A stretch of DNA of 17,220 nucleotides from a virus (Duplodnaviria > Heunggongvirae > Uroviricota > Caudoviricetes): the IMG/VR virus record IMGVR_UViG_2609460354_000003; one strand, given 5' to 3'. The notes beneath the pieces were generated by a model. The model was given only the letters and a program-made list of their open reading frames with translations. It made no database searches and was not told where the DNA came from. Shown piece after piece: positions 2,066 through 15,662 of this stretch (positions within the stretch are counted from its first letter, which is position 1; the number at the start of each line of letters is the position of its first letter). The translations under genes were made by a program, and so were the position numbers.

Positions 2066-2449
2066 TTACCTCCAGATGCGTTGCTGGAATGTGCGGGACG
2101 GACGCCTGACGGAGATTATCCAGTGACGATAATCGAGGCTGAGGGCTTTCTTAATCTCGTATCCGTGTCTGCGGTAGCACTGAATTAGCCACTCGGCCTG
2201 TTCTTCAGTGCATGGGGGATGCTGGAACCAGTCAGATTTGAAAGTGCGGGAACGCCGCCCGTGCCTGCTGGCAGGGGCGGCAGAGTTATCCGAATTGTAA
2301 AATTTGGTATCGTGCGCCATCTGTTTTCTCTGCTGGCGCAGCAGGTGCCAGTTGTTCAGGCTGACGGATGGATTGTAAACCAGAACGACCAGAAAAAACA
2401 AAACCCGCCGAAGCGGGTTAAGTGCGGGTGCGTTGAGGATGCCTGACAC
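2066..2449 (-). CDS. Hypothetical small protein between DUF968 gene and hok (Rem-like by position); true start may be ATG at 2320 (84 aa)
   Basis: ORF-track frame. No convincing SD at 2449. Internal ATG at 2320 would give MAHDTKFYNSD... Basic protein, function unknown. Confidence 0.4.
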   Translation of the reverse strand: MSGILNAPALNPLRRVLFFLVVLVYNPSVSLNNWHLLRQQRKQMAHDTKFYNSDNSAAPASRHGRRSRTFKSDWFQHPPCTEEQAEWLIQCYRRHGYEIKKALSLDYRHWIISVRRPSRTFQQRIWR

Positions 2450-2487
2450 ATCAGCGGTGGCGAGGGATTTCTCCCCCGCCGGGTCTC

Positions 2488-2643
2488 TTACTCCTCAGGT
2501 TCGTAAGCTGTGAAGACAGCGACCTCCGTCTGGCCGGTTCGGATTCGTACCTCGCAGAGGTCTTTCCTCGTTACCAGTGCCGTCACTATGACGGTTAAAC
2601 AGATGACGATCAGGGCGATTAACATCGCCTTTTGCTGCTTCAT
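2488..2643 (-). CDS. hokD: Hok/Gef-family type I toxin (HokD/RelF-like), 51 aa
   Basis: Hand translation from ATG 2643: MKQQKAMLIALIVICLTVIVTALVTRKDLCEVRIRTGQTEVAVFTAYEPEE, stop TAA at 2488-2490. AAGGAGAAG SD upstream. Below the 60-aa cutoff of the ORF track. Matches HokD/RelF as recalled. Confidence 0.85.
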   Translation of the reverse strand: MKQQKAMLIALIVICLTVIVTALVTRKDLCEVRIRTGQTEVAVFTAYEPEE

Positions 2644-2901
2644 AGCCTGCTTCTCCTTGACCTTTCGGTCCGTAAGAGGCTAATCTCTATGTGTCGCATA
2701 GATATGGCCTCAGATTAATGTTAAGCGTCTTGCAGGACGCGTAATGTTAACTGGGGCTTTTCTCTATCTGCCTTTTGGTGTTCATGCCTGAGACAGATAG
2801 CCTCAAGCACCCGCAGTCATTCTACTTAACTAAGATTTCCCCGCAAACCGTTTTTGTCCGGCACAGTAAATATCCAACTAAACCAATGGCGTTCGCTGTA
2901 T

Positions 2902-3081
2902 TTACCGCCAGTATTCAATGCACATGACCGCCATGAACACCCCTAAAAAAAGGGCATTTATATATCCAAATATTAATATCAAAACATCAACTTTTTCCAT
3001 ATACCTTGCTGTGAAGATGATGGGCATACATGATACGAACAACCAGAACGCAACAAACAAAAACTGCAATGCGTTTTTCAT
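2902..3081 (-). CDS. Small predicted membrane protein (59 aa, two hydrophobic helices), unknown function
   Basis: Internal ATG at 3081 of the 72-aa ORF is preceded by AGGAGG. Product MKNALQFLFVAFWLFVSCMPIIF...LILIFGYINALFLGVFMAVMCIEYWR is strongly hydrophobic. Lies in an AT-rich island. Confidence 0.4.
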   Translation of the reverse strand: MKNALQFLFVAFWLFVSCMPIIFTARYMEKVDVLILIFGYINALFLGVFMAVMCIEYWR

Positions 3082-3310
3082 TATTCCTCCTACAATCAAT
3101 GTGCAATTACATTTAAACACACCTCAATTTGGCCGGACATATAAATATCTAAACCAGAAAAAATCACTTACATAGCGTTACAAACTCTTTAGTCTAAATA
3201 TTCATCGTAAAACATTCCCCATACTTATCAGCCCGTTCTGCGCCAGGTAGCTCATTGCCTTATCTGGGAATCTGTAATCAGGTTTCCGGATGCTGGTGGA
3301 TTTTCGCGTT

Positions 3311-3568
3311 TTAGTTGTTCATAAAAGTGCACAGCTTTAACCAGTTCTTCTGATGTAACCGGGACTGGCGGGGCAGTGAATAAGGCCTGAATTTCATAGT
3401 TCGGCCTGTCGTTACAATCCTCTTTTTTCGGTACATATTTCCAGTCACCAGACCACTACTTCCCCTGAAAGTCCGTAACGCCTTTTTTTTCACGTAGCGA
3501 TATCGCCATGCCACTGTTTTTGCTTCCCCCGCCGTTTCATGCCCTTCCTGATAATTAACCTCGCTCAT
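3311..3568 (-). CDS. Hypothetical basic protein (85 aa); N-terminus MSEVNYQ resembles Ead-like N-termini
   Basis: ATG 3568 overlaps the stop of the upstream small ORF (ATGA). Contains an A8 homopolymer (3483-3490), but neither a +1 nor a -1 shift there gives a longer frame. Confidence 0.3.
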   Translation of the reverse strand: MSEVNYQEGHETAGEAKTVAWRYRYVKKKALRTFRGSSGLVTGNMYRKKRIVTTGRTMKFRPYSLPRQSRLHQKNWLKLCTFMNN

Positions 3569-3741
3569 TCATCGCCCCACTCATCACAATATGCTTCGAC
3601 CGGAGTTTTTCCTGCTTCATAATCATCACGCCATGCTTCAGCATCAGCAGCACTGCCACCACGTAACTCTGCATAGTCCATTAACAGTTCATGCCATGCT
3701 TCAAAACTGACGTTGTATTTAGTTGAACCAAAATCAGCCAT
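3565..3741 (-). CDS. Hypothetical small acidic protein (58 aa)
   Basis: Hand translation MADFGSTKYNVSFEAWHELLMDYAELRGGSAADAEAWRDDYEAGKTPVEAYCDEWGDE. Coupled to genes on both sides. Below ORF-track size cutoff. Confidence 0.3.
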   Translation of the reverse strand: MADFGSTKYNVSFEAWHELLMDYAELRGGSAADAEAWRDDYEAGKTPVEAYCDEWGDE

Positions 3742-6873: not shown

Positions 6874-7055
6874 GTTGATGCTCTCCCGCCCCTGACAGAC
6901 GCCAGGCCAGTCAATAAAGTATCCGCACAATGCCTACCCTCAGACGTGCGCGCAGGATAAATGCCGTTATGACCCGGCAAAATATATGCTACCCATTCAT
7001 CTTGCGTTGCCTGTTCCGCCGCCTCACGCAGTGCCTGAGAGTTAATTTCGCTCAC
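6870..7055 (-). pseudogene. Ead-like N-terminal fragment (61-aa ORF), probable recombination remnant
   Basis: First 16 aa MSEINSQALREAAEQA parallel the N-terminus of 5684..6433. Its 5' DNA (7021-7055) is a near repeat of 6399-6433. The rest of the ORF has no protein-like character. Confidence 0.3.
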
Positions 7056-7273
7056 TTCGAACCTCTCTGTTTACTGATAAGTTCCAGATCCTCCTGGCAA
7101 CTTGCACAAGTCCGACAACCCTGAACGGCCAGGCGTCTTCGTTCATCTATCGGATCGCCACACTCACAACAATGAGTGGCAGATATAGCCTGGTGGTTCA
7201 GGCGGCGCATTTTTATTGCTGTATTGCGCTGTAATTCTTCGATTTCTGATGCTGAATCAATGATGTCTGCCAT
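7052..7273 (-). CDS. TraR/DksA-family C4 zinc-finger protein (73 aa)
   Basis: CCECGDPIDERRR...CRTCASC four-Cys motif in a short phage protein. Confidence 0.7.
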   Translation of the reverse strand: MADIIDSASEIEELQRNTAIKMRRLNHQAISATHCCECGDPIDERRRLAVQGCRTCASCQEDLELISKQRGSK

Positions 7274-10899: not shown

Positions 10900-11751
10900 T
10901 TACTGAATTTTCCTGAAAATCACAAGAGGAGTCATTCCGTATGCGGTGCTACTGCGGCCTGCTAATTCTTTTATCCCAGAAAGCATTTCTGTTATGCCAT
11001 CTTTCAAAGGGTTTGACGGGAACACAGACATATCGAAAAGTTCTTGGTCATATTCAGGAAGGGCATCGATAAAACCAAGTACGTACCATTCGCCTGGAAT
11101 ACTCCCACCATATTTTAGAACCATATCGTCTGGATTAATGGTGAGGTAATCACGATTAATAGTCATCCAAATGGTTTGACCAAAATCATTAATAAAATCA
11201 ACCTGCAATGTGTTCGGGACAATATTAAGTACTTCTTTCATCATGCCAAAAGTGACACCGGGCGAGACGGGGATTTCGTCAATACTATCATTCGTTTTTT
11301 TTGCTTTTGGCGGTAGCTTGGAGCGTTCTGCCTTTAGCATTTTTGCTACAAACGGGACGCTTTTTTGAAACATGGAAATATCAAAAATACGAACATGGCC
11401 TTTAGATAAAACAGTACTCCCAAGTCTTTCACCATTAAGTTCTGTTTTTATTAGATCATTTTCAGAAAGTTTATCTAAGAGGTTAATAGGAAGCGTCCAT
11501 GAAGCATCATAGCTTTTTTCATGGGTGTAATTGATAGTTTCCTCAACACCAAGTTTTGACTTAATGATTTTAATGTCAAAGCCGGCATCACTTACTGATT
11601 TGTCAACTTCAGCTGTTACCTGTCTGATAGATGTTATTACACCAGGCCCATGCATCTGTGCCAAGAGCGATGATGCCCGCTTGTTATCAACATATAGAAA
11701 ATCATACAATGAATCGGTGGTTTGTGATTCTTGCGCCGCGGATACGGTCAT
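10900..11751 (-). CDS. Unknown 283-aa protein in the cI-downstream (rex-like) position
   Basis: Complete ORF with AAGGAAGAG SD 7 nt before ATG 11751. AT-rich relative to neighbours. Same strand as cI, followed by a terminator. No motif recognised. Confidence 0.7.
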   Translation of the reverse strand: MTVSAAQESQTTDSLYDFLYVDNKRASSLLAQMHGPGVITSIRQVTAEVDKSVSDAGFDIKIIKSKLGVEETINYTHEKSYDASWTLPINLLDKLSENDLIKTELNGERLGSTVLSKGHVRIFDISMFQKSVPFVAKMLKAERSKLPPKAKKTNDSIDEIPVSPGVTFGMMKEVLNIVPNTLQVDFINDFGQTIWMTINRDYLTINPDDMVLKYGGSIPGEWYVLGFIDALPEYDQELFDMSVFPSNPLKDGITEMLSGIKELAGRSSTAYGMTPLVIFRKIQ

Positions 11752-12750: not shown

Positions 12751-12860
12751 AAGTTTTAATTTATACGCTTGCGTATTGATGGTCAAAACACGTTTTGCTA
12801 TTGCTTGGATTAATACGCATTGCTATTATTCATTCATTGCAATACCAATAGGAATTGATA
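12751..12860. promoter_or_regulatory. OR-like divergent promoter/operator region (PRM-like leftward, PR-like rightward)
   Basis: Minus strand TTGACC (12781-12786), 15-16 nt spacer, TATAAA (12760-12765), ending 8-9 nt before the cI ATG, implying a leaderless or near-leaderless cI mRNA. Plus strand TTGCTT (12801-12806), 17 nt, TATTAT (12824-12829). Three ATTGCTATT/ATTGCAAT operator-like motifs between 12796 and 12845. Confidence 0.6.
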
Positions 12861-13088
12861 ATGACAAATCAAACCATTCAACTCGCAATCAGTATTACAG
12901 GTAGTCAAAAACGACTGGCAGATCTATGCGGTGTAGCCCAACCCACAGTTTGGCGTTGGCTACACGGTGGCGGAATTGATGCCCGCTATGTAATGAAAAT
13001 TGTCTCAGCCACTGGTGGAAAGATTAAACCAGCAGATATTCGTCCCGACCTCGCACCATTGTTTAACGCGAGTAATTCTGCCGCCTAA
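12861..13088 (+). CDS. cro: Cro-like HTH regulator (75 aa)
   Basis: ATG 12861 with AGGAA SD. HTH segment QKRLADLCGVAQPTVWRWL. Divergent from cI across the operator region. Confidence 0.7.
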   Translation: MTNQTIQLAISITGSQKRLADLCGVAQPTVWRWLHGGGIDARYVMKIVSATGGKIKPADIRPDLAPLFNASNSAA

Positions 13089-13112
13089 ACTGCGGCGTTA
13101 ACTGATAAGGCA

Positions 13113-13658
13113 ATGACTATGCAACCACTTACATACCAACAGACTAGCGGATTTAGCCCGACTGCGGTGATAAATCGTTCTCAAACAAAACAGGTGCCAG
13201 GCCACGAAAAAATCCGTGATGCCGTCCGCGCCTGGTCGGCTGCAGATAATCAGGATGTTGTTGCCGCACTCATTGTGAATGAGTATCGGGAGCAGGGCGG
13301 CGGCACCATCGATTTCCCTGATGATGTCAGCCGTGCACGCCAGAAGCTGTTCCGCTTCCTCGATAACAAATTCGATTCTGAAAAATACCGAAATAACGTG
13401 CGTGAACTGACCCCGGCAATTCTGGCGGTACTACCGCTGGAATATCGCGGTTACCTGGTTGAGCAGGATAGCTTCATGACTCGGTTGGCTGAAATGGAAA
13501 AGGAACTCAGTGAGGCAAAACAGGCTGTCATTCTCAACGCACCACGCCACCAGAAACTGAAGGAGATGAGTGAAGGCATTGTGTCGATGTTTCGTGTGGA
13601 CCCGGACCTGGCTGGTCCATTGATGGCGATGGTCACCACCATGCTGGGGGCAATATGA
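13113..13658 (+). CDS. CII-position regulatory protein (YdaT/CII-like, putative)
   Basis: 181-aa ORF between cro and O; start may instead be ATG 13119 (better SD spacing). Family assignment from memory, not computed. Confidence 0.45.
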   Translation: MTMQPLTYQQTSGFSPTAVINRSQTKQVPGHEKIRDAVRAWSAADNQDVVAALIVNEYREQGGGTIDFPDDVSRARQKLFRFLDNKFDSEKYRNNVRELTPAILAVLPLEYRGYLVEQDSFMTRLAEMEKELSEAKQAVILNAPRHQKLKEMSEGIVSMFRVDPDLAGPLMAMVTTMLGAI

Positions 13659-13744
13659 CAGGTTCAGAAATGGCGAAAGCCGGTCTGCGCGAACAGAACC
13701 GACTTTCAGGTGCAAATCGTAACACACTCATTGCGGGAGGAATT

Positions 13745-14674
13745 ATGGCAAACACTGCTGAGATATTCAATTTTCCAGTGCCGGATGCGGCACAAAAGGA
13801 GCCGCGCGTGGCAGATCTCGATGATGGTTATACGCGCATTGCAAATGAGTTGCTGGAAGCTGTGATGCTGGCCGGATTAACACAGCACCAGCTTCTGGTC
13901 TTCCTGGCTGTCATGCGCAAAACATATGGCTTTAATAAAAAACTGGATTGGGTGAGCAACGAGCAACTGTCCGAATTGACCGGGATATTGCCGCACAAGT
14001 GTTCTGCTGCAAAAAGTGTTCTGGTAAAGCGTGGGATTTTGATTCAGAGCGGGCGGAATATCGGTATTAATAATGTGGTCAGTGAATGGGCAACATTACC
14101 CGAATCAGGTAAGAAAAATAAAGTTTACCTGAAAGAGGTAAATTTACCTGAATCAGGTAAGAAAAGTTTACCCAAATCAGGTAAAGGCGTTTACCCGAAT
14201 CAGGTAAACACAAAAGACAAACTAACAAAAGACAATATAAAACCTTTTTCGTCCGAGAATTCTGGCGAATCCTCTGACCAACCAGAAAACGATCTTCCTG
14301 TGGTGAAACCAGATGCTGCAATTCAGAGCGGCAGCAAGTGGGGGACAGCAGAAGACCTGACCGCCGCAGAGTGGATGTTTGACATGGTGAAGACCATCGC
14401 GCCCTCAGCCAGAAAACCGAATTTTGCAGGGTGGGCTAACGATATCCGCCTGATGCGTGAACGTGACGGACGTAACCACCGCGACATGTGCGTGCTGTTC
14501 CGCTGGGCATGCCAGGACAACTTCTGGTCCGGTAACGTGCTGAGTCCGGCCAAACTCCGCGACAAGTGGACCCAGCTCGAAATCAACCGAAACAAGCAAC
14601 AGGCTGGCGTGACAGCCGGCAAACCAAAACTCGACCTGACGAACACTGACTGGATTTACGGGGTGGATTTATGA
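13745..14674 (+). CDS. O: Replication initiator O (divergent N-terminal iteron-binding domain, lambda-like C-terminal P-interaction domain)
   Basis: ATG 13745 preceded by GGGAGG. C-terminal half (SGESSDQPENDLPVVKPDAAIQSGSKWGTAEDLTAAEWMFDMVKTIAPSARKPNFAGWANDIRLMRERDGRNHRDMC...) matches lambda O as recalled. N-terminal domain differs. An upstream in-frame ATG at 13655 is an alternative start. Confidence 0.88.
   Translation: MANTAEIFNFPVPDAAQKEPRVADLDDGYTRIANELLEAVMLAGLTQHQLLVFLAVMRKTYGFNKKLDWVSNEQLSELTGILPHKCSAAKSVLVKRGILIQSGRNIGINNVVSEWATLPESGKKNKVYLKEVNLPESGKKSLPKSGKGVYPNQVNTKDKLTKDNIKPFSSENSGESSDQPENDLPVVKPDAAIQSGSKWGTAEDLTAAEWMFDMVKTIAPSARKPNFAGWANDIRLMRERDGRNHRDMCVLFRWACQDNFWSGNVLSPAKLRDKWTQLEINRNKQQAGVTAGKPKLDLTNTDWIYGVDL
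14096..14208. repeat. Origin of replication: five 18-bp iterons inside the O gene, followed by an AT-rich stretch
   Basis: Iterons TTACC(C/T)(G/A)A(A/T)(T/A)(C/G)AGGTAA(G/A) at 14096, 14125, 14144, 14168, 14191. AT-rich 14209-14250. Same architecture as lambda ori. Confidence 0.8.
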
Positions 14675-15372
14675 AAAACATCGCCGCACAGATGATTAAC
14701 TTTGACCGTGAGCAGATGCGCCGGATCGCCAACAACATGCCGGAACAGTACGAAGAAAAGCCGCAGGTACAGCAGATAGCGCAGATCATCAACGGTGTGT
14801 TCAGCCAGTTACTGGCAACTTTCCCGGCGAGCCTGGCTAACCGTGACCAGAACGAACTGAACGAAATCCGCCGCCAGTGGGTTCTGGCTTTTCGGGAAAA
14901 CGGGATCACCACAATGGAACAGGTTAACGCAGGAATGCGCGTAGCCCGTCGACAGAATCGACCATTTCTGCCATCACCTGGGCAGTTTGTTGCATGGTGC
15001 CGGGAAGAAGCATCCGTTATCGCCGGACTGCCAAACGTCAGCGAGCTGGTTGATATGGTTTACGAGTATTGCCGGAAGCGTGGCCTGTATCCGGATGCAG
15101 AGTCTTATCCGTGGAAATCAAACGCGCACTACTGGCTGGTTACCAACCTGTACCAGAACATGCGGGCCAATGCGCTGACTGACGCGGAATTACGGCGTAA
15201 GGCTGCCGATGAGCTGTCCTGTATGACCGCACGAATTAACCGTGGTGAGGCTATACCTGAACCAGTAAAACAACTTCCTGTCATGGGCGGTAGACCTCTA
15301 AATCGTGCACAGGCTCTGGCGAAGATCGCAGAAATCAAAGCGAAGTTCGGACTGAAAGGAGCAAGTGTATGA
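14671..15372 (+). CDS. P: Replication protein P (DnaB helicase loader)
   Basis: 233 aa MKNIAAQMINFDREQMRRIANNMPEQYEEKPQVQQIAQIINGVFSQLLATFPASLANRDQNE..., near-identical to lambda P as recalled. ATGA overlap with O stop. Confidence 0.95.
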   Translation: MKNIAAQMINFDREQMRRIANNMPEQYEEKPQVQQIAQIINGVFSQLLATFPASLANRDQNELNEIRRQWVLAFRENGITTMEQVNAGMRVARRQNRPFLPSPGQFVAWCREEASVIAGLPNVSELVDMVYEYCRKRGLYPDAESYPWKSNAHYWLVTNLYQNMRANALTDAELRRKAADELSCMTARINRGEAIPEPVKQLPVMGGRPLNRAQALAKIAEIKAKFGLKGASV

Positions 15373-15662
15373 CGGGAAAAGAAGCAATTATTCATTACCT
15401 GGGGACGCATAAGAGCTTCTGTGCGCAGGACGTAGCTGCGGTAACAGGCGCAACAGTAACCAGCATAAATCAGGCTGCGGCTAAAATGGCGCGGACAGGA
15501 ATCTTAGTCATTGATGGTAAGGTCTGGCGAACGGTGTATTACCGGTTCGCTACCAGGGAAGAACGGGAAGGAAAGGTGAGTACGAATCTGATTTTCAAGG
15601 AGTGTCGCCAGAGTGCCGCGATGAAACGGGTGTTGGCGGTATATGGGAGGACTACAGCATAA
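15369..15662 (+). CDS. ren: Ren protein
   Basis: 97 aa MTGKEAIIHYLGTHKSFCAQDVAAVTGATVTSINQAAAKMAR... matches lambda Ren as recalled. ATGA overlap with P stop. Confidence 0.9.
   Translation: MTGKEAIIHYLGTHKSFCAQDVAAVTGATVTSINQAAAKMARTGILVIDGKVWRTVYYRFATREEREGKVSTNLIFKECRQSAAMKRVLAVYGRTTA

What the first reader, a model, noticed from the sequence alone, without database searches (positions are those of the whole stretch)
2902..3310. AT-rich island with a strongly initiated small two-helix membrane ORF
The 59-aa product (ATG 3081, AGGAGG SD) is almost entirely hydrophobic and sits alone in an AT-rich, otherwise non-coding stretch between the hok module and the early-left operon. Small membrane proteins in such places are often type I toxins or superinfection-exclusion/lysogenic-conversion factors.
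Basis: inference. Interest (0 to 1): 0.5.

Follow-up and report, generated by a model that had tools for sequence, protein, structure and literature searches.

The report
Unannotated small prophage membrane-protein gene
The AT-rich patch next to the hok toxin module holds a real but uncharacterised 59-residue, two-helix membrane-protein gene that sits on a small insertion found in about 29% of complete E. coli genomes; standard annotation misses it, and nothing supports it being a hok-type toxin.

Summary
On the minus strand, ATG 3081 to stop 2902 encodes a 59-aa protein. AGGAGG lies 4 nt upstream, and the product is two hydrophobic helices joined by a short charged loop.

- **Beyond chance:** AGGAGG plus ATG plus an ORF of at least 40 aa arose in 1 of 5000 shuffles.
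- **Boundaries:** the island is really 2861-3201 (341 nt, 35% GC). It is an insertion compared with phage 689R5. Positions 3205-3568 are a decayed pseudogene.
- **Decisive evidence:** an exhaustive HMMER search found one divergent relative in E. coli. It is also 59 aa, aligns without gaps at 41% identity, and lies in a prophage remnant beside ttcA.
- **Coding signal:** DNA identity by codon position is 57/72/47%, dN/dS is about 0.19, and only this frame is open in both copies. It is therefore a genuine protein-coding family. The small-residue stripe G39-A43-G47-A/S51 and N42 in helix 2 are conserved.
- **Against a type I toxin:** there is no antisense RNA signal, no Hok/Gef similarity, and the relative has no hok beside it.

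Function is unknown. My best inference is an accessory inner-membrane protein acting through helix packing, possibly in superinfection exclusion. Recent polymorphism (8 nonsynonymous, 1 synonymous) shows no constraint, so present-day function is unproven.

The parts
2861..3201 (-). AT-rich insertion (341 nt, 35% GC) that carries the small gene
   Evidence: Phage 689R5 has the same upstream gene end and the same hok promoter region, but only about 85 unrelated nt between them. All database copies of the island are at least 95% identical, and no distant DNA relatives exist in phages or plasmids. Weak flank similarity to the relative's locus ends at these same borders.
2902..3081 (-). Coding sequence of the 59-aa two-helix membrane protein (stop codon included)
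   Evidence: Searches give the ORF. The relative is 41% identical, gapless and of the same length. Identity by codon position is 57/72/47% and dN/dS is about 0.19. 113 of 116 complete copies retrieved by a DNA pattern outside the ORF are intact.
3086..3091 (-). Shine-Dalgarno sequence AGGAGG, 4 nt before the ATG
   Evidence: Read from the sequence. The combination with an ORF occurred in 1 of 5000 shuffles. The only variant at this site (A3088G) gives AGGGGG, which can still pair with the 16S rRNA tail through G-U (the pairing is inference).
3082..3201 (-). 120-nt non-coding leader between the upstream gene's stop and the ATG
   Evidence: No ORF, no consensus sigma-70 promoter and no terminator. 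No significant RNA structure. It is more variable than the ORF: 14 of 120 sites against 9 of 177.
3010..3075 (-). Helix 1 (residues 3-24), with invariant W13, S17, C18, P20, I21, I22, T24
   Evidence: AlphaFold2 helix 3-24; hydropathy; invariant columns in alignment A2.
2917..2985 (-). Hydrophobic core of helix 2 (residues 33-55), with the conserved stripe G39-A43-G47-A/S51 and N42
   Evidence: AlphaFold2 helix 31-58; hydropathy; alignment A2 and residue listing.
2861..2901 (-). 41-nt non-coding tail of the insertion; no intrinsic terminator before the hok promoter
   Evidence: Terminator scan found none in 2400-3700. Similarity to 689R5 resumes at about 2860.
3205..3568 (-). Flank: pseudogene of a 171-aa phage protein (original stop at 3204-3202), making up the right part of the reported interval
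   Evidence: tblastn with the intact L004 protein gives pieces in three frames, an internal stop and an internal deletion of about 45 codons. PGAP marks it 'frameshifted; internal stop' in the identical O104:H4 sequence.
2488..2860 (-). Flank: hok/mok/sok type I toxin-antitoxin module (hok CDS 2488-2643; hok mRNA 5' region 2641-2812)
   Evidence: Rfam RF01794 scores 106.7 bits. Pfam HOK_GEF E = 1.2e-23. A promoter read by eye is TTGCGG (2846-2841), 16 nt, TAGAAT (2824-2819); this is inference.
2918..3175 (+). Antisense 85-aa shadow ORF, not a gene (annotated 'hornerin' in two phage records)
   Evidence: It has no Shine-Dalgarno sequence. The same frame has 2 stops in the divergent relative.

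Best explanation
**What it is.**
- The minus-strand ORF 3081-2902 is a genuine protein-coding gene for a 59-residue inner-membrane helical hairpin. The predicted topology has both ends in the cytoplasm.
- It lies on a 341-nt AT-rich accessory insertion of the 'moron' type. The insertion sits between the last delayed-early gene and the hok/sok module of a lambdoid prophage.

**How it is probably expressed (inferred).**
- No promoter or terminator of its own is recognisable in this copy.
- It is therefore most likely read as part of the long early transcript that runs through this region after induction.
- Translation would start efficiently from the AGGAGG site.

**How it probably works (inferred).**
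- The conserved small-residue stripe G39-A43-G47-A/S51 with N42 in helix 2, and S17-C18-x-P20 in helix 1, suggest action by tight helix-helix packing in the membrane.
- The partner could be the protein itself or a host or phage membrane protein.
- That would make it a modulator, for example of phage DNA entry (superinfection exclusion), and not a membrane-killing toxin.

**What is shown.** The ORF and its ribosome-binding site, the insertion borders, the protein-level conservation and the predicted two helices.

**What is inferred.** Topology, mode of transcription, helix packing and the biological role.
For: **Gene reality.**
- AGGAGG plus ATG plus an ORF of at least 40 aa occurred in 1 of 5000 shuffles.
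- Codon-position composition is heterogeneous, p = 0.011.
- An exhaustive HMMER search of 1.84 billion representatives found a second clade (P0065/P0071). It has the same 59-aa length and aligns without gaps at 41% identity and 71% positives, BLASTP E = 4e-19.
- DNA identity of the two ORFs by codon position is 33/58, 42/58 and 27/58. Position 2 against position 3 gives Fisher p = 0.008.
- NG86 gives dN 0.44 and dS 2.33.
- The other two sense frames and all antisense frames carry stops in at least one clade.
- Given the island's composition, the chance that the 49 changed codons avoid a stop is about 0.02.
- 113 of 116 complete copies retrieved by a DNA pattern outside the ORF are intact.

**Insertion.**
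- Comparison with 689R5 defines the borders.
- GC is 35%.
- The block is present in 1569 of 5426 complete E. coli genomes.

**Two helices.**

**Topology.** The relative has +2 charge at its N-terminus and -2 in the loop.

**Not obligatorily tied to hok and probably not lethal.** The relative sits intact in a 1.3-kb prophage remnant beside ttcA in 1050 of 5426 genomes, without hok/sok.
Against: - Recent polymorphism shows no purifying selection. There are 9 variable sites in 177 nt, 8 nonsynonymous and 1 synonymous, against 20-26% synonymous expected if neutral. All 4 variable sites in the relative are nonsynonymous.
- The ORF is only marginally less variable than its island flanks (5.1% against 10.6%, p = 0.07).
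- Frameshifted variants at the T7 run exist in public assemblies.
- NCBI's PGAP does not call the gene in any RefSeq record examined.
- No promoter or terminator was found for this copy.
- The family consists of only two clades, both in E. coli/Shigella, so the conservation evidence rests on one deep comparison with saturated dS.
- No homology to any protein of known function, and fold matches are non-significant.
- There is no transcript, ribosome-profiling or proteomic evidence, and no paper was found.
Confidence: 0.6

Rival explanations
1. Translatable but currently functionless ORF. It would be a relic of an old accessory gene, or a young gene, that hitch-hikes with the hok/sok block and now evolves neutrally.
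For: - Polymorphism is 8 nonsynonymous to 1 synonymous in this clade and 4 to 0 in the relative, so there is no excess of synonymous change.
- Frameshift and truncation variants occur.
- No promoter was found.
- PGAP does not annotate it.
- A 180-nt target at no more than 5% divergence would stay open by chance in most copies.
Against: - The deep comparison between clades shows protein-level constraint: 57/72/47% identity by codon position, dN/dS about 0.19, the same length and the same start and stop.
- The near-perfect Shine-Dalgarno sequence is retained in all haplotypes.
- The relative survives intact in a prophage remnant in which the integrase, DUF1627 and sitD genes are fragments.
Confidence: 0.2
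2. Type I toxin. This would be a small hydrophobic killer peptide held in check by an antisense RNA, like the neighbouring Hok.
For: - It is small, very hydrophobic and prophage-borne.
- It lies directly upstream of a bona fide type I module.
Against: - No similarity to Hok/Gef or any other toxin family.
- Two helices are predicted, whereas known type I toxins usually have one (the comparison is from my own knowledge).
- No Rfam hit, no significant structure and no promoter or terminator on the opposite strand.
- The ribosome-binding site is not specially sequestered.
- The relative persists alone in 1050 genomes, with a possible extended -10 promoter and no recognisable antitoxin.
Confidence: 0.08
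3. Holin or pinholin-like pore former that helps to time lysis or collapses membrane potential late in infection.
For: - About 60 aa, with two transmembrane helices.
- Both ends are predicted to be cytoplasmic.
- A conserved small-residue stripe in helix 2 resembles the glycine zipper of the phage 21 pinholin (the comparison is from my own knowledge).
Against: - It lies upstream of Q, not in a lysis cassette next to an endolysin.
- It has no charged C-terminal tail (only EYWR) and no dual-start motif.
- No holin family hit, and the only 'holin' fold match has E = 6.7.
- The relative is retained in a remnant without any lysis genes.
Confidence: 0.05
4. The AT-rich patch is mainly a non-coding regulatory spacer, and the ORF is incidental. 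It could be an H-NS-bound insulator or an upstream element of the hok promoter.
For: - Low GC and a T-rich strand would make any ORF look hydrophobic.
- The patch abuts the hok promoter.
- It is always linked to the hok 5' region.
Against: - The signal is frame-specific: T at position 2 is 54% against 24% at position 3, with protein-level conservation.
- hok/sok modules of the same type work in many phages without the island.
- The relative's island has no hok beside it.
Confidence: 0.05

Closest known systems
Phage 'morons' (extra accessory genes inserted between genes that are adjacent in related lambdoid phages; concept of Hendrix and colleagues, cited from my own knowledge)
   Same: - The gene is a discrete 341-nt insertion between two elements that lie about 85 nt apart in phage 689R5.
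- Its base composition is distinct (35% GC).
- It is a single small gene.
- It is distributed patchily among prophages.
   Different: - No promoter or terminator of its own is recognisable in this copy.
- Only the divergent relative has a candidate extended -10.
Hok/Gef type I toxins (Pfam PF01848), including the neighbouring hok at 2488-2643
   Same: Small, hydrophobic, membrane-targeted, prophage-borne and physically adjacent.
   Different: - No sequence similarity.
- Two predicted helices, not one.
- No mok-like leader frame and no antisense RNA signal.
- The relative occurs without any hok/sok.
Pinholin S21-68 of phage 21 (class II holin; properties cited from my own knowledge)
   Same: - A lambdoid phage protein of about 60-70 aa with two transmembrane helices.
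- Both ends are cytoplasmic.
- Helix 2 carries a small-xxx-small stripe.
   Different: - It is not in the lysis cassette.
- It has no charged C-terminal tail and no dual start.
- It shows no sequence or significant fold similarity.
Small membrane superinfection-exclusion proteins of phages and prophages (T4 Imm, HK97 gp15, P22 SieA; cited from my own knowledge)
   Same: Short transmembrane accessory proteins, dispensable for phage growth, often on AT-rich insertions. This is the functional class I consider most likely.
   Different: - No homology to any of them.
- No PADLOC or PHROG match of known function.
- No evidence of expression in lysogens for this copy.

Membership tests
Type I toxin-antitoxin toxin (Hok/Gef and similar) | Sequence membership in a known toxin family (for example Pfam HOK_GEF) | tested here: not met
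   No Pfam, NCBIfam, PHROG or PADLOC family at E up to 10, apart from chance-level hits. The neighbouring hok scores E = 1.2e-23 as a positive control.
Type I toxin-antitoxin toxin (Hok/Gef and similar) | A cis- or nearby-encoded antisense RNA antitoxin | tested here: not met
   No Rfam match in 2861-3201. No promoter or terminator on the plus strand. Fold z-scores are -0.68 and -1.46. The relative's locus has no sok or other antitoxin RNA. A novel unstructured antisense RNA cannot be excluded.
Type I toxin-antitoxin toxin (Hok/Gef and similar) | Toxicity through membrane damage on expression | not testable with these tools
   This needs expression and membrane-potential assays.
Phage moron | An extra gene between two genes or elements that are adjacent in related phages | tested here: met
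   The alignment with phage 689R5 shows shared upstream gene end and hok promoter region, with 341 nt here against about 85 unrelated nt there.
Phage moron | Base composition different from the neighbours | tested here: met
   The island has 35% GC. Windows to the left have 52-59% and windows to the right 37-50%.
Phage moron | Its own promoter and terminator | tested here: inconclusive
   No consensus promoter or intrinsic terminator on the minus strand in 2400-3700. The relative has TGATATAAT 75 nt upstream of its ATG (read by eye), but this does not align with a comparable motif here.
Holin / pinholin | Location in a lysis cassette next to an endolysin, downstream of Q | tested here: not met
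   The gene lies upstream of hok, DUF968, RusA and Q on the same strand.
Holin / pinholin | Charged C-terminal cytoplasmic tail and a dual-start motif | tested here: not met
   The C-terminus is IEYWR, and there is a single ATG with one Shine-Dalgarno sequence.
Holin / pinholin | At least one transmembrane domain (class II: two, with both ends cytoplasmic) | tested here: met
   Two helices are predicted. The charge distribution favours both ends being cytoplasmic (inference).
The new 59-aa family itself (this clade plus P0071 clade) | 59 aa, gapless, with invariant W13, S17-C18-x-P20-I-I-x-T24, F38-G39-x-x-N42-A43-L44-x-x-G47-V48-F49 and I55-E56-x-W58-R59 | tested here: met
   Alignment A2; BLASTP E = 4e-19.

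The most novel reading that the evidence does not exclude
The two 59-aa clades define an unrecognised family of prophage-derived, two-helix inner-membrane proteins. E. coli would keep them for its own benefit, for example to block DNA entry of superinfecting phages or to tune a host membrane complex through the conserved helix-2 stripe. One clade would have been domesticated as the only intact gene of a decayed prophage beside ttcA in about a fifth of E. coli genomes.
Probability: 0.2. Interest if true: 0.55.

Novelty: new member of a known kind. Interest (0 to 1): 0.35.

Why it matters
- A gene missing from RefSeq annotation is present in about 29% of complete E. coli genomes, including O104:H4, ST131 and Shigella. 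Its relative is present in a further 19% or so.
- Some phage records annotate the wrong strand and label it 'hornerin'.
- Small prophage membrane proteins are a recurrent source of phage-exclusion and host-modulating functions. This one is cheap to test, being 180 nt long with two natural variants.
- It is nevertheless one more uncharacterised small accessory gene, not a new kind of system.

Tried and rejected
**Homology and structure searches that gave nothing.**
- Pfam, PHROGs, NCBIfam and PADLOC gave nothing meaningful.
- A PDB sequence profile search gave nothing at E up to 10.
- A BFVD fold search gave only generic helical hairpins, best E = 0.89.
- The afdb50 library was unavailable.

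**RNA and transcription signals.**
- Rfam found only the known sok/hok element outside the island. A sub-threshold isrK-like hit lies at 2400-2479.
- RNA folding of the island on either strand was not significant.
- The promoter and terminator scan was empty on the minus strand.
- Accessibility of the ribosome-binding site was uninformative.

**Wider searches for relatives.**
- Distant blastn against phages and plasmids found no relatives below 94% identity apart from the upstream gene's tail.
- A metagenome scan with the two-clade alignment found only the same two clades.

**Within-clade selection.** The nonsynonymous-to-synonymous counts have too few sites to be decisive.

**Cassette borders.** An imperfect 25-nt direct repeat at 2853-2877 and 3128-3152 was considered as a cassette border. 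I rejected this, because the one rearrangement ending there (L078) is an IS1 insertion.

**The plus-strand 85-aa ORF.** It is an antisense shadow ORF, not a gene.

**Literature.** A peptide string search, two topic searches and the supplements of one EHEC small-gene paper turned up nothing on this gene.

Full report
**1. What is there**

Reading the minus strand:
- The sequence around the start is ...TTGATTGTAGGAGGAATAATGAAAAAC..., with AGGAGG at 3091-3086 and ATG at 3081.
- A 59-codon frame ends at TAA 2904-2902.
- The product is MKNALQFLFVAFWLFVSCMPIIFTARYMEKVDVLILIFGYINALFLGVFMAVMCIEYWR.
- GRAVY is 1.31. Two hydrophobic stretches flank the loop RYMEKVD.
- AlphaFold2 on the single sequence predicts helices 3-24 and 31-58, mean pLDDT 83.7.
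- GC falls to 0.35-0.40 across 2800-3300.

**2. Is it more than chance?**

- Length alone is not remarkable. 12% of dinucleotide-preserving shuffles of the island contain an ATG-ORF of at least 59 aa.
- The coding strand is T-rich, which by itself favours hydrophobic codons.
- AGGAGG at the right distance from an ATG that opens at least 40 codons arose in only 1 of 5000 shuffles.
- The T excess is frame-specific: 37%, 54% and 24% at codon positions 1, 2 and 3. G+C at position 3 is 51% (chi-square p = 0.011).

**3. Borders and setting**

Genes on the minus strand, from high to low coordinates:

| Feature | Coordinates |
|---|---|
| cI-like repressor | 12786-12058 |
| DUF6414 | 11751-10900 |
| gam, bet, exo | 10136-8372 |
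| Dam methyltransferase | 8221-7664 |
| TraR/DksA | 7273-7052 |
| two Ea22-like genes | 6930-5684 |
| four genes of unknown function | 5682-4010 |
| DUF7167 | 3916-3734 |
| 58-aa gene | 3741-3565 |
| pseudogene | 3568-3205 |
| the island | 3201-2861 |
| hok/sok | 2860-2488 |
| phrog_1212 gene | 2449-2066 |
| DUF968 | 2064-1018 |
| RusA | 1005-631 |
| Q antiterminator (cut by window end) | 634-2 |

- In the other loci that reach far enough upstream, collinearity with the window stops at about 7078-7100. There the block lies downstream of replication genes, that is, in the early-right operon.
- In either setting the small gene is co-oriented with a long early transcript, and no terminator separates it from its neighbours.

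The island is narrower than the reported interval.
- Positions 3568-3205 are a decayed copy of a 171-aa phage protein that is intact in strain MLI109. The copy is spread over three frames, has one internal stop and lacks about 45 codons. Its original stop is at 3204-3202.
- On the other side, the hok mRNA 5' region matches Rfam RF01794 at 2812-2641. Similarity to hok modules of Stx phages and of phage 689R5 begins at about 2860.
- In 689R5 the same gene tail (…TTTTACGATGA) and the same hok promoter region are separated by only about 85 unrelated nucleotides.
- Hence 2861-3201 (341 nt, 35% GC) is an insertion of the kind called a moron.
- It has no DNA relatives below 94% identity in the phage or plasmid collections.
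- It occurs in 1569 of 5426 complete E. coli genomes, always at 95% identity or more.
- It always travels with the hok 5' region and the last 80 nt or so of the upstream gene.

**4. Is it a gene?**

Evidence that at first pointed against a gene:
- Word-indexed searches found only near-identical E. coli/Shigella sequences, named 'hypothetical' or 'membrane protein', plus many frameshifted or truncated variants.
- PGAP never calls it.
- Two phage records annotate the opposite strand as 'hornerin'.
- Across 126 loci and 45 haplotypes the ORF has 9 variable sites, 8 nonsynonymous and 1 synonymous. This gives no sign of purifying selection.
- The ORF is only about half as variable as its island flanks (p = 0.07).
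- In a sample retrieved by a DNA pattern outside the ORF, 113 of 116 complete copies are intact. At 5% divergence or less this is weak evidence.

The decisive result came from the exhaustive HMMER scan.
- It found P0065, also 59 aa, aligning without gaps at 41% identity and 71% positives (BLASTP E = 4e-19).
- Its common form, P0071, is MRKILMYLCISIWIVISCVPIILTSEYLTEASIMALMFGHANALCIGVFISIIYIECWR.
- P0071 lies in 1050 of 5426 complete E. coli genomes, in a 1.3-kb prophage remnant. The gene order there is ttcA, integrase fragment, DUF1627 fragment, this ORF, sitD fragment, uspF, ompN.
- The two ORFs are 60% identical in DNA. Identity is 33/58, 42/58 and 27/58 at codon positions 1, 2 and 3 (position 2 against 3, p = 0.008).
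- NG86 gives dN 0.44 and dS 2.33, which is saturated, so dN/dS is about 0.19.
- Every other frame, sense or antisense, carries stops in at least one clade.
- Start and stop codons coincide in the two clades. The relative has an in-frame TAA 6 codons upstream of its ATG, which fixes the 59-aa start and rules against the 72-aa GTG form.
- Flank similarity is marginal and ends at the island borders.

I conclude that this is a real protein-coding family with long-term constraint on the protein. Whether this particular copy is still under selection is not shown.

**5. What the protein looks like**

- Invariant residues are W13, S17, C18, P20, I21, I22, T24 in helix 1, then Y27.
- In helix 2 they are L36, F38, G39, N42, A43, L44, G47, V48, F49, followed by I55, E56, W58, R59.
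- G39-A43-G47-A/S51 form a small-residue stripe along one face of helix 2, next to a conserved Asn.
- Charges favour both ends being cytoplasmic with a short periplasmic loop: the relative has +2 at its N-terminus and -2 in the loop (inference from the positive-inside rule).
- Such stripes usually mark tight helix-helix packing (established knowledge; inference here).

**6. Mechanism and rivals**

Best reading, confidence 0.6 for the compound statement:
- It is an accessory inner-membrane hairpin.
- It is read from the early transcript after induction and translated from a strong site.
- It acts by packing against itself or another membrane protein.
- Superinfection exclusion is the likeliest role, by analogy only.

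The type I toxin idea fails three tests:
- No family membership.
- No antisense RNA signal.
- The relative survives alone, without hok/sok.

A holin-like role is unlikely given the position upstream of Q and the missing charged tail.

A functionless relic remains a serious rival (0.2) because of the polymorphism pattern.

**7. Comparison and novelty**

- The closest concepts are phage morons, small exclusion proteins, pinholins and Hok. The gene is a sequence member of none of them.
- The ORF already exists in GenBank and UniProt as a hypothetical or membrane protein.
- It has no Pfam family and I found no paper on it.
- I rate it a new member of a known kind, with moderate-to-low interest.

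Noticed in passing
window 7052-7273 (junction at about 7078-7100), and the whole window: The gene order is unusual. A PL-type operon (cI, gam, bet, exo, Dam, TraR, Ea22) runs on the minus strand straight into nin-type genes (hok, DUF968, RusA) and the Q antiterminator. Meanwhile cro-like, YdaT, O, P and ren run the other way at 12855-15662. No complete E. coli genome covers 80% or more of the window. In every other locus collinearity stops at about 7078-7100, so this is a mosaic joint or a rearranged prophage.
   Followed up: partly
window 3205-3568, minus strand: Pseudogene of a 171-aa phage protein that is intact in strain MLI109 (L004 1833-2348). The copy is spread over three frames, with an internal stop and an internal deletion of about 45 codons. 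Its C-terminal 27 residues are a module also shared with an unrelated 114-aa protein of phage 689R5.
   Followed up: yes
L211 8001-8180 (E. coli chromosome between ttcA and uspF): The 41%-identical relative of the small gene is the only intact ORF in a 1.3-kb prophage remnant at the Rac attachment site. It is flanked by integrase, DUF1627 and sitD fragments, occurs in 1050 of 5426 complete genomes, and is not annotated by PGAP.
   Followed up: partly
L211 7918-7926: A perfect extended -10 motif (TGATATAAT) lies 75 nt upstream of the relative's ATG. It reads TGACATAAT in L209. No equivalent motif aligns in the window copy.
   Followed up: partly
window 2918-3175, plus strand: An 85-aa ORF antisense to the real gene is what two phage GenBank records annotate here, as 'hornerin'. 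It has no Shine-Dalgarno sequence and is interrupted by 2 stops in the relative, so it is a shadow ORF and a mis-annotation.
   Followed up: yes
window 2944-2950 (run of 7 T on the coding strand, in CCCTTTTTTTAGGGG): Most frameshifted database variants of the small protein diverge at this homopolymer run (P0019, P0021, P0024, P0025, P0028). I could not tell whether these are sequencing errors or real slippage variants.
   Followed up: no
window 2853-2877 and 3128-3152: An imperfect 25-nt direct repeat (72% identity) brackets the small gene. It is probably chance. The one rearrangement that ends at 3150 (L078) is an IS1 insertion 68 nt upstream of the ATG.
   Followed up: yes
window 2400-2479, minus strand: A sub-threshold match to the Salmonella prophage sRNA family isrK (19.5 bits against a gathering score of 50, E = 0.15), just downstream of hok.
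   Followed up: no
51 loci including L003 (break at window position of about 2640): In many genomes similarity to the window stops at about the hok start codon. In L003, the one such locus whose annotation was examined, a partial ISNCY transposase lies beyond the break. The small gene upstream stays intact in these loci.
   Followed up: partly
window 10900-11751, minus strand: A DUF6414 protein occupies the slot just downstream of the cI-like repressor, where lambda carries rexAB. It is a candidate lysogen-expressed accessory or defence gene.
   Followed up: no
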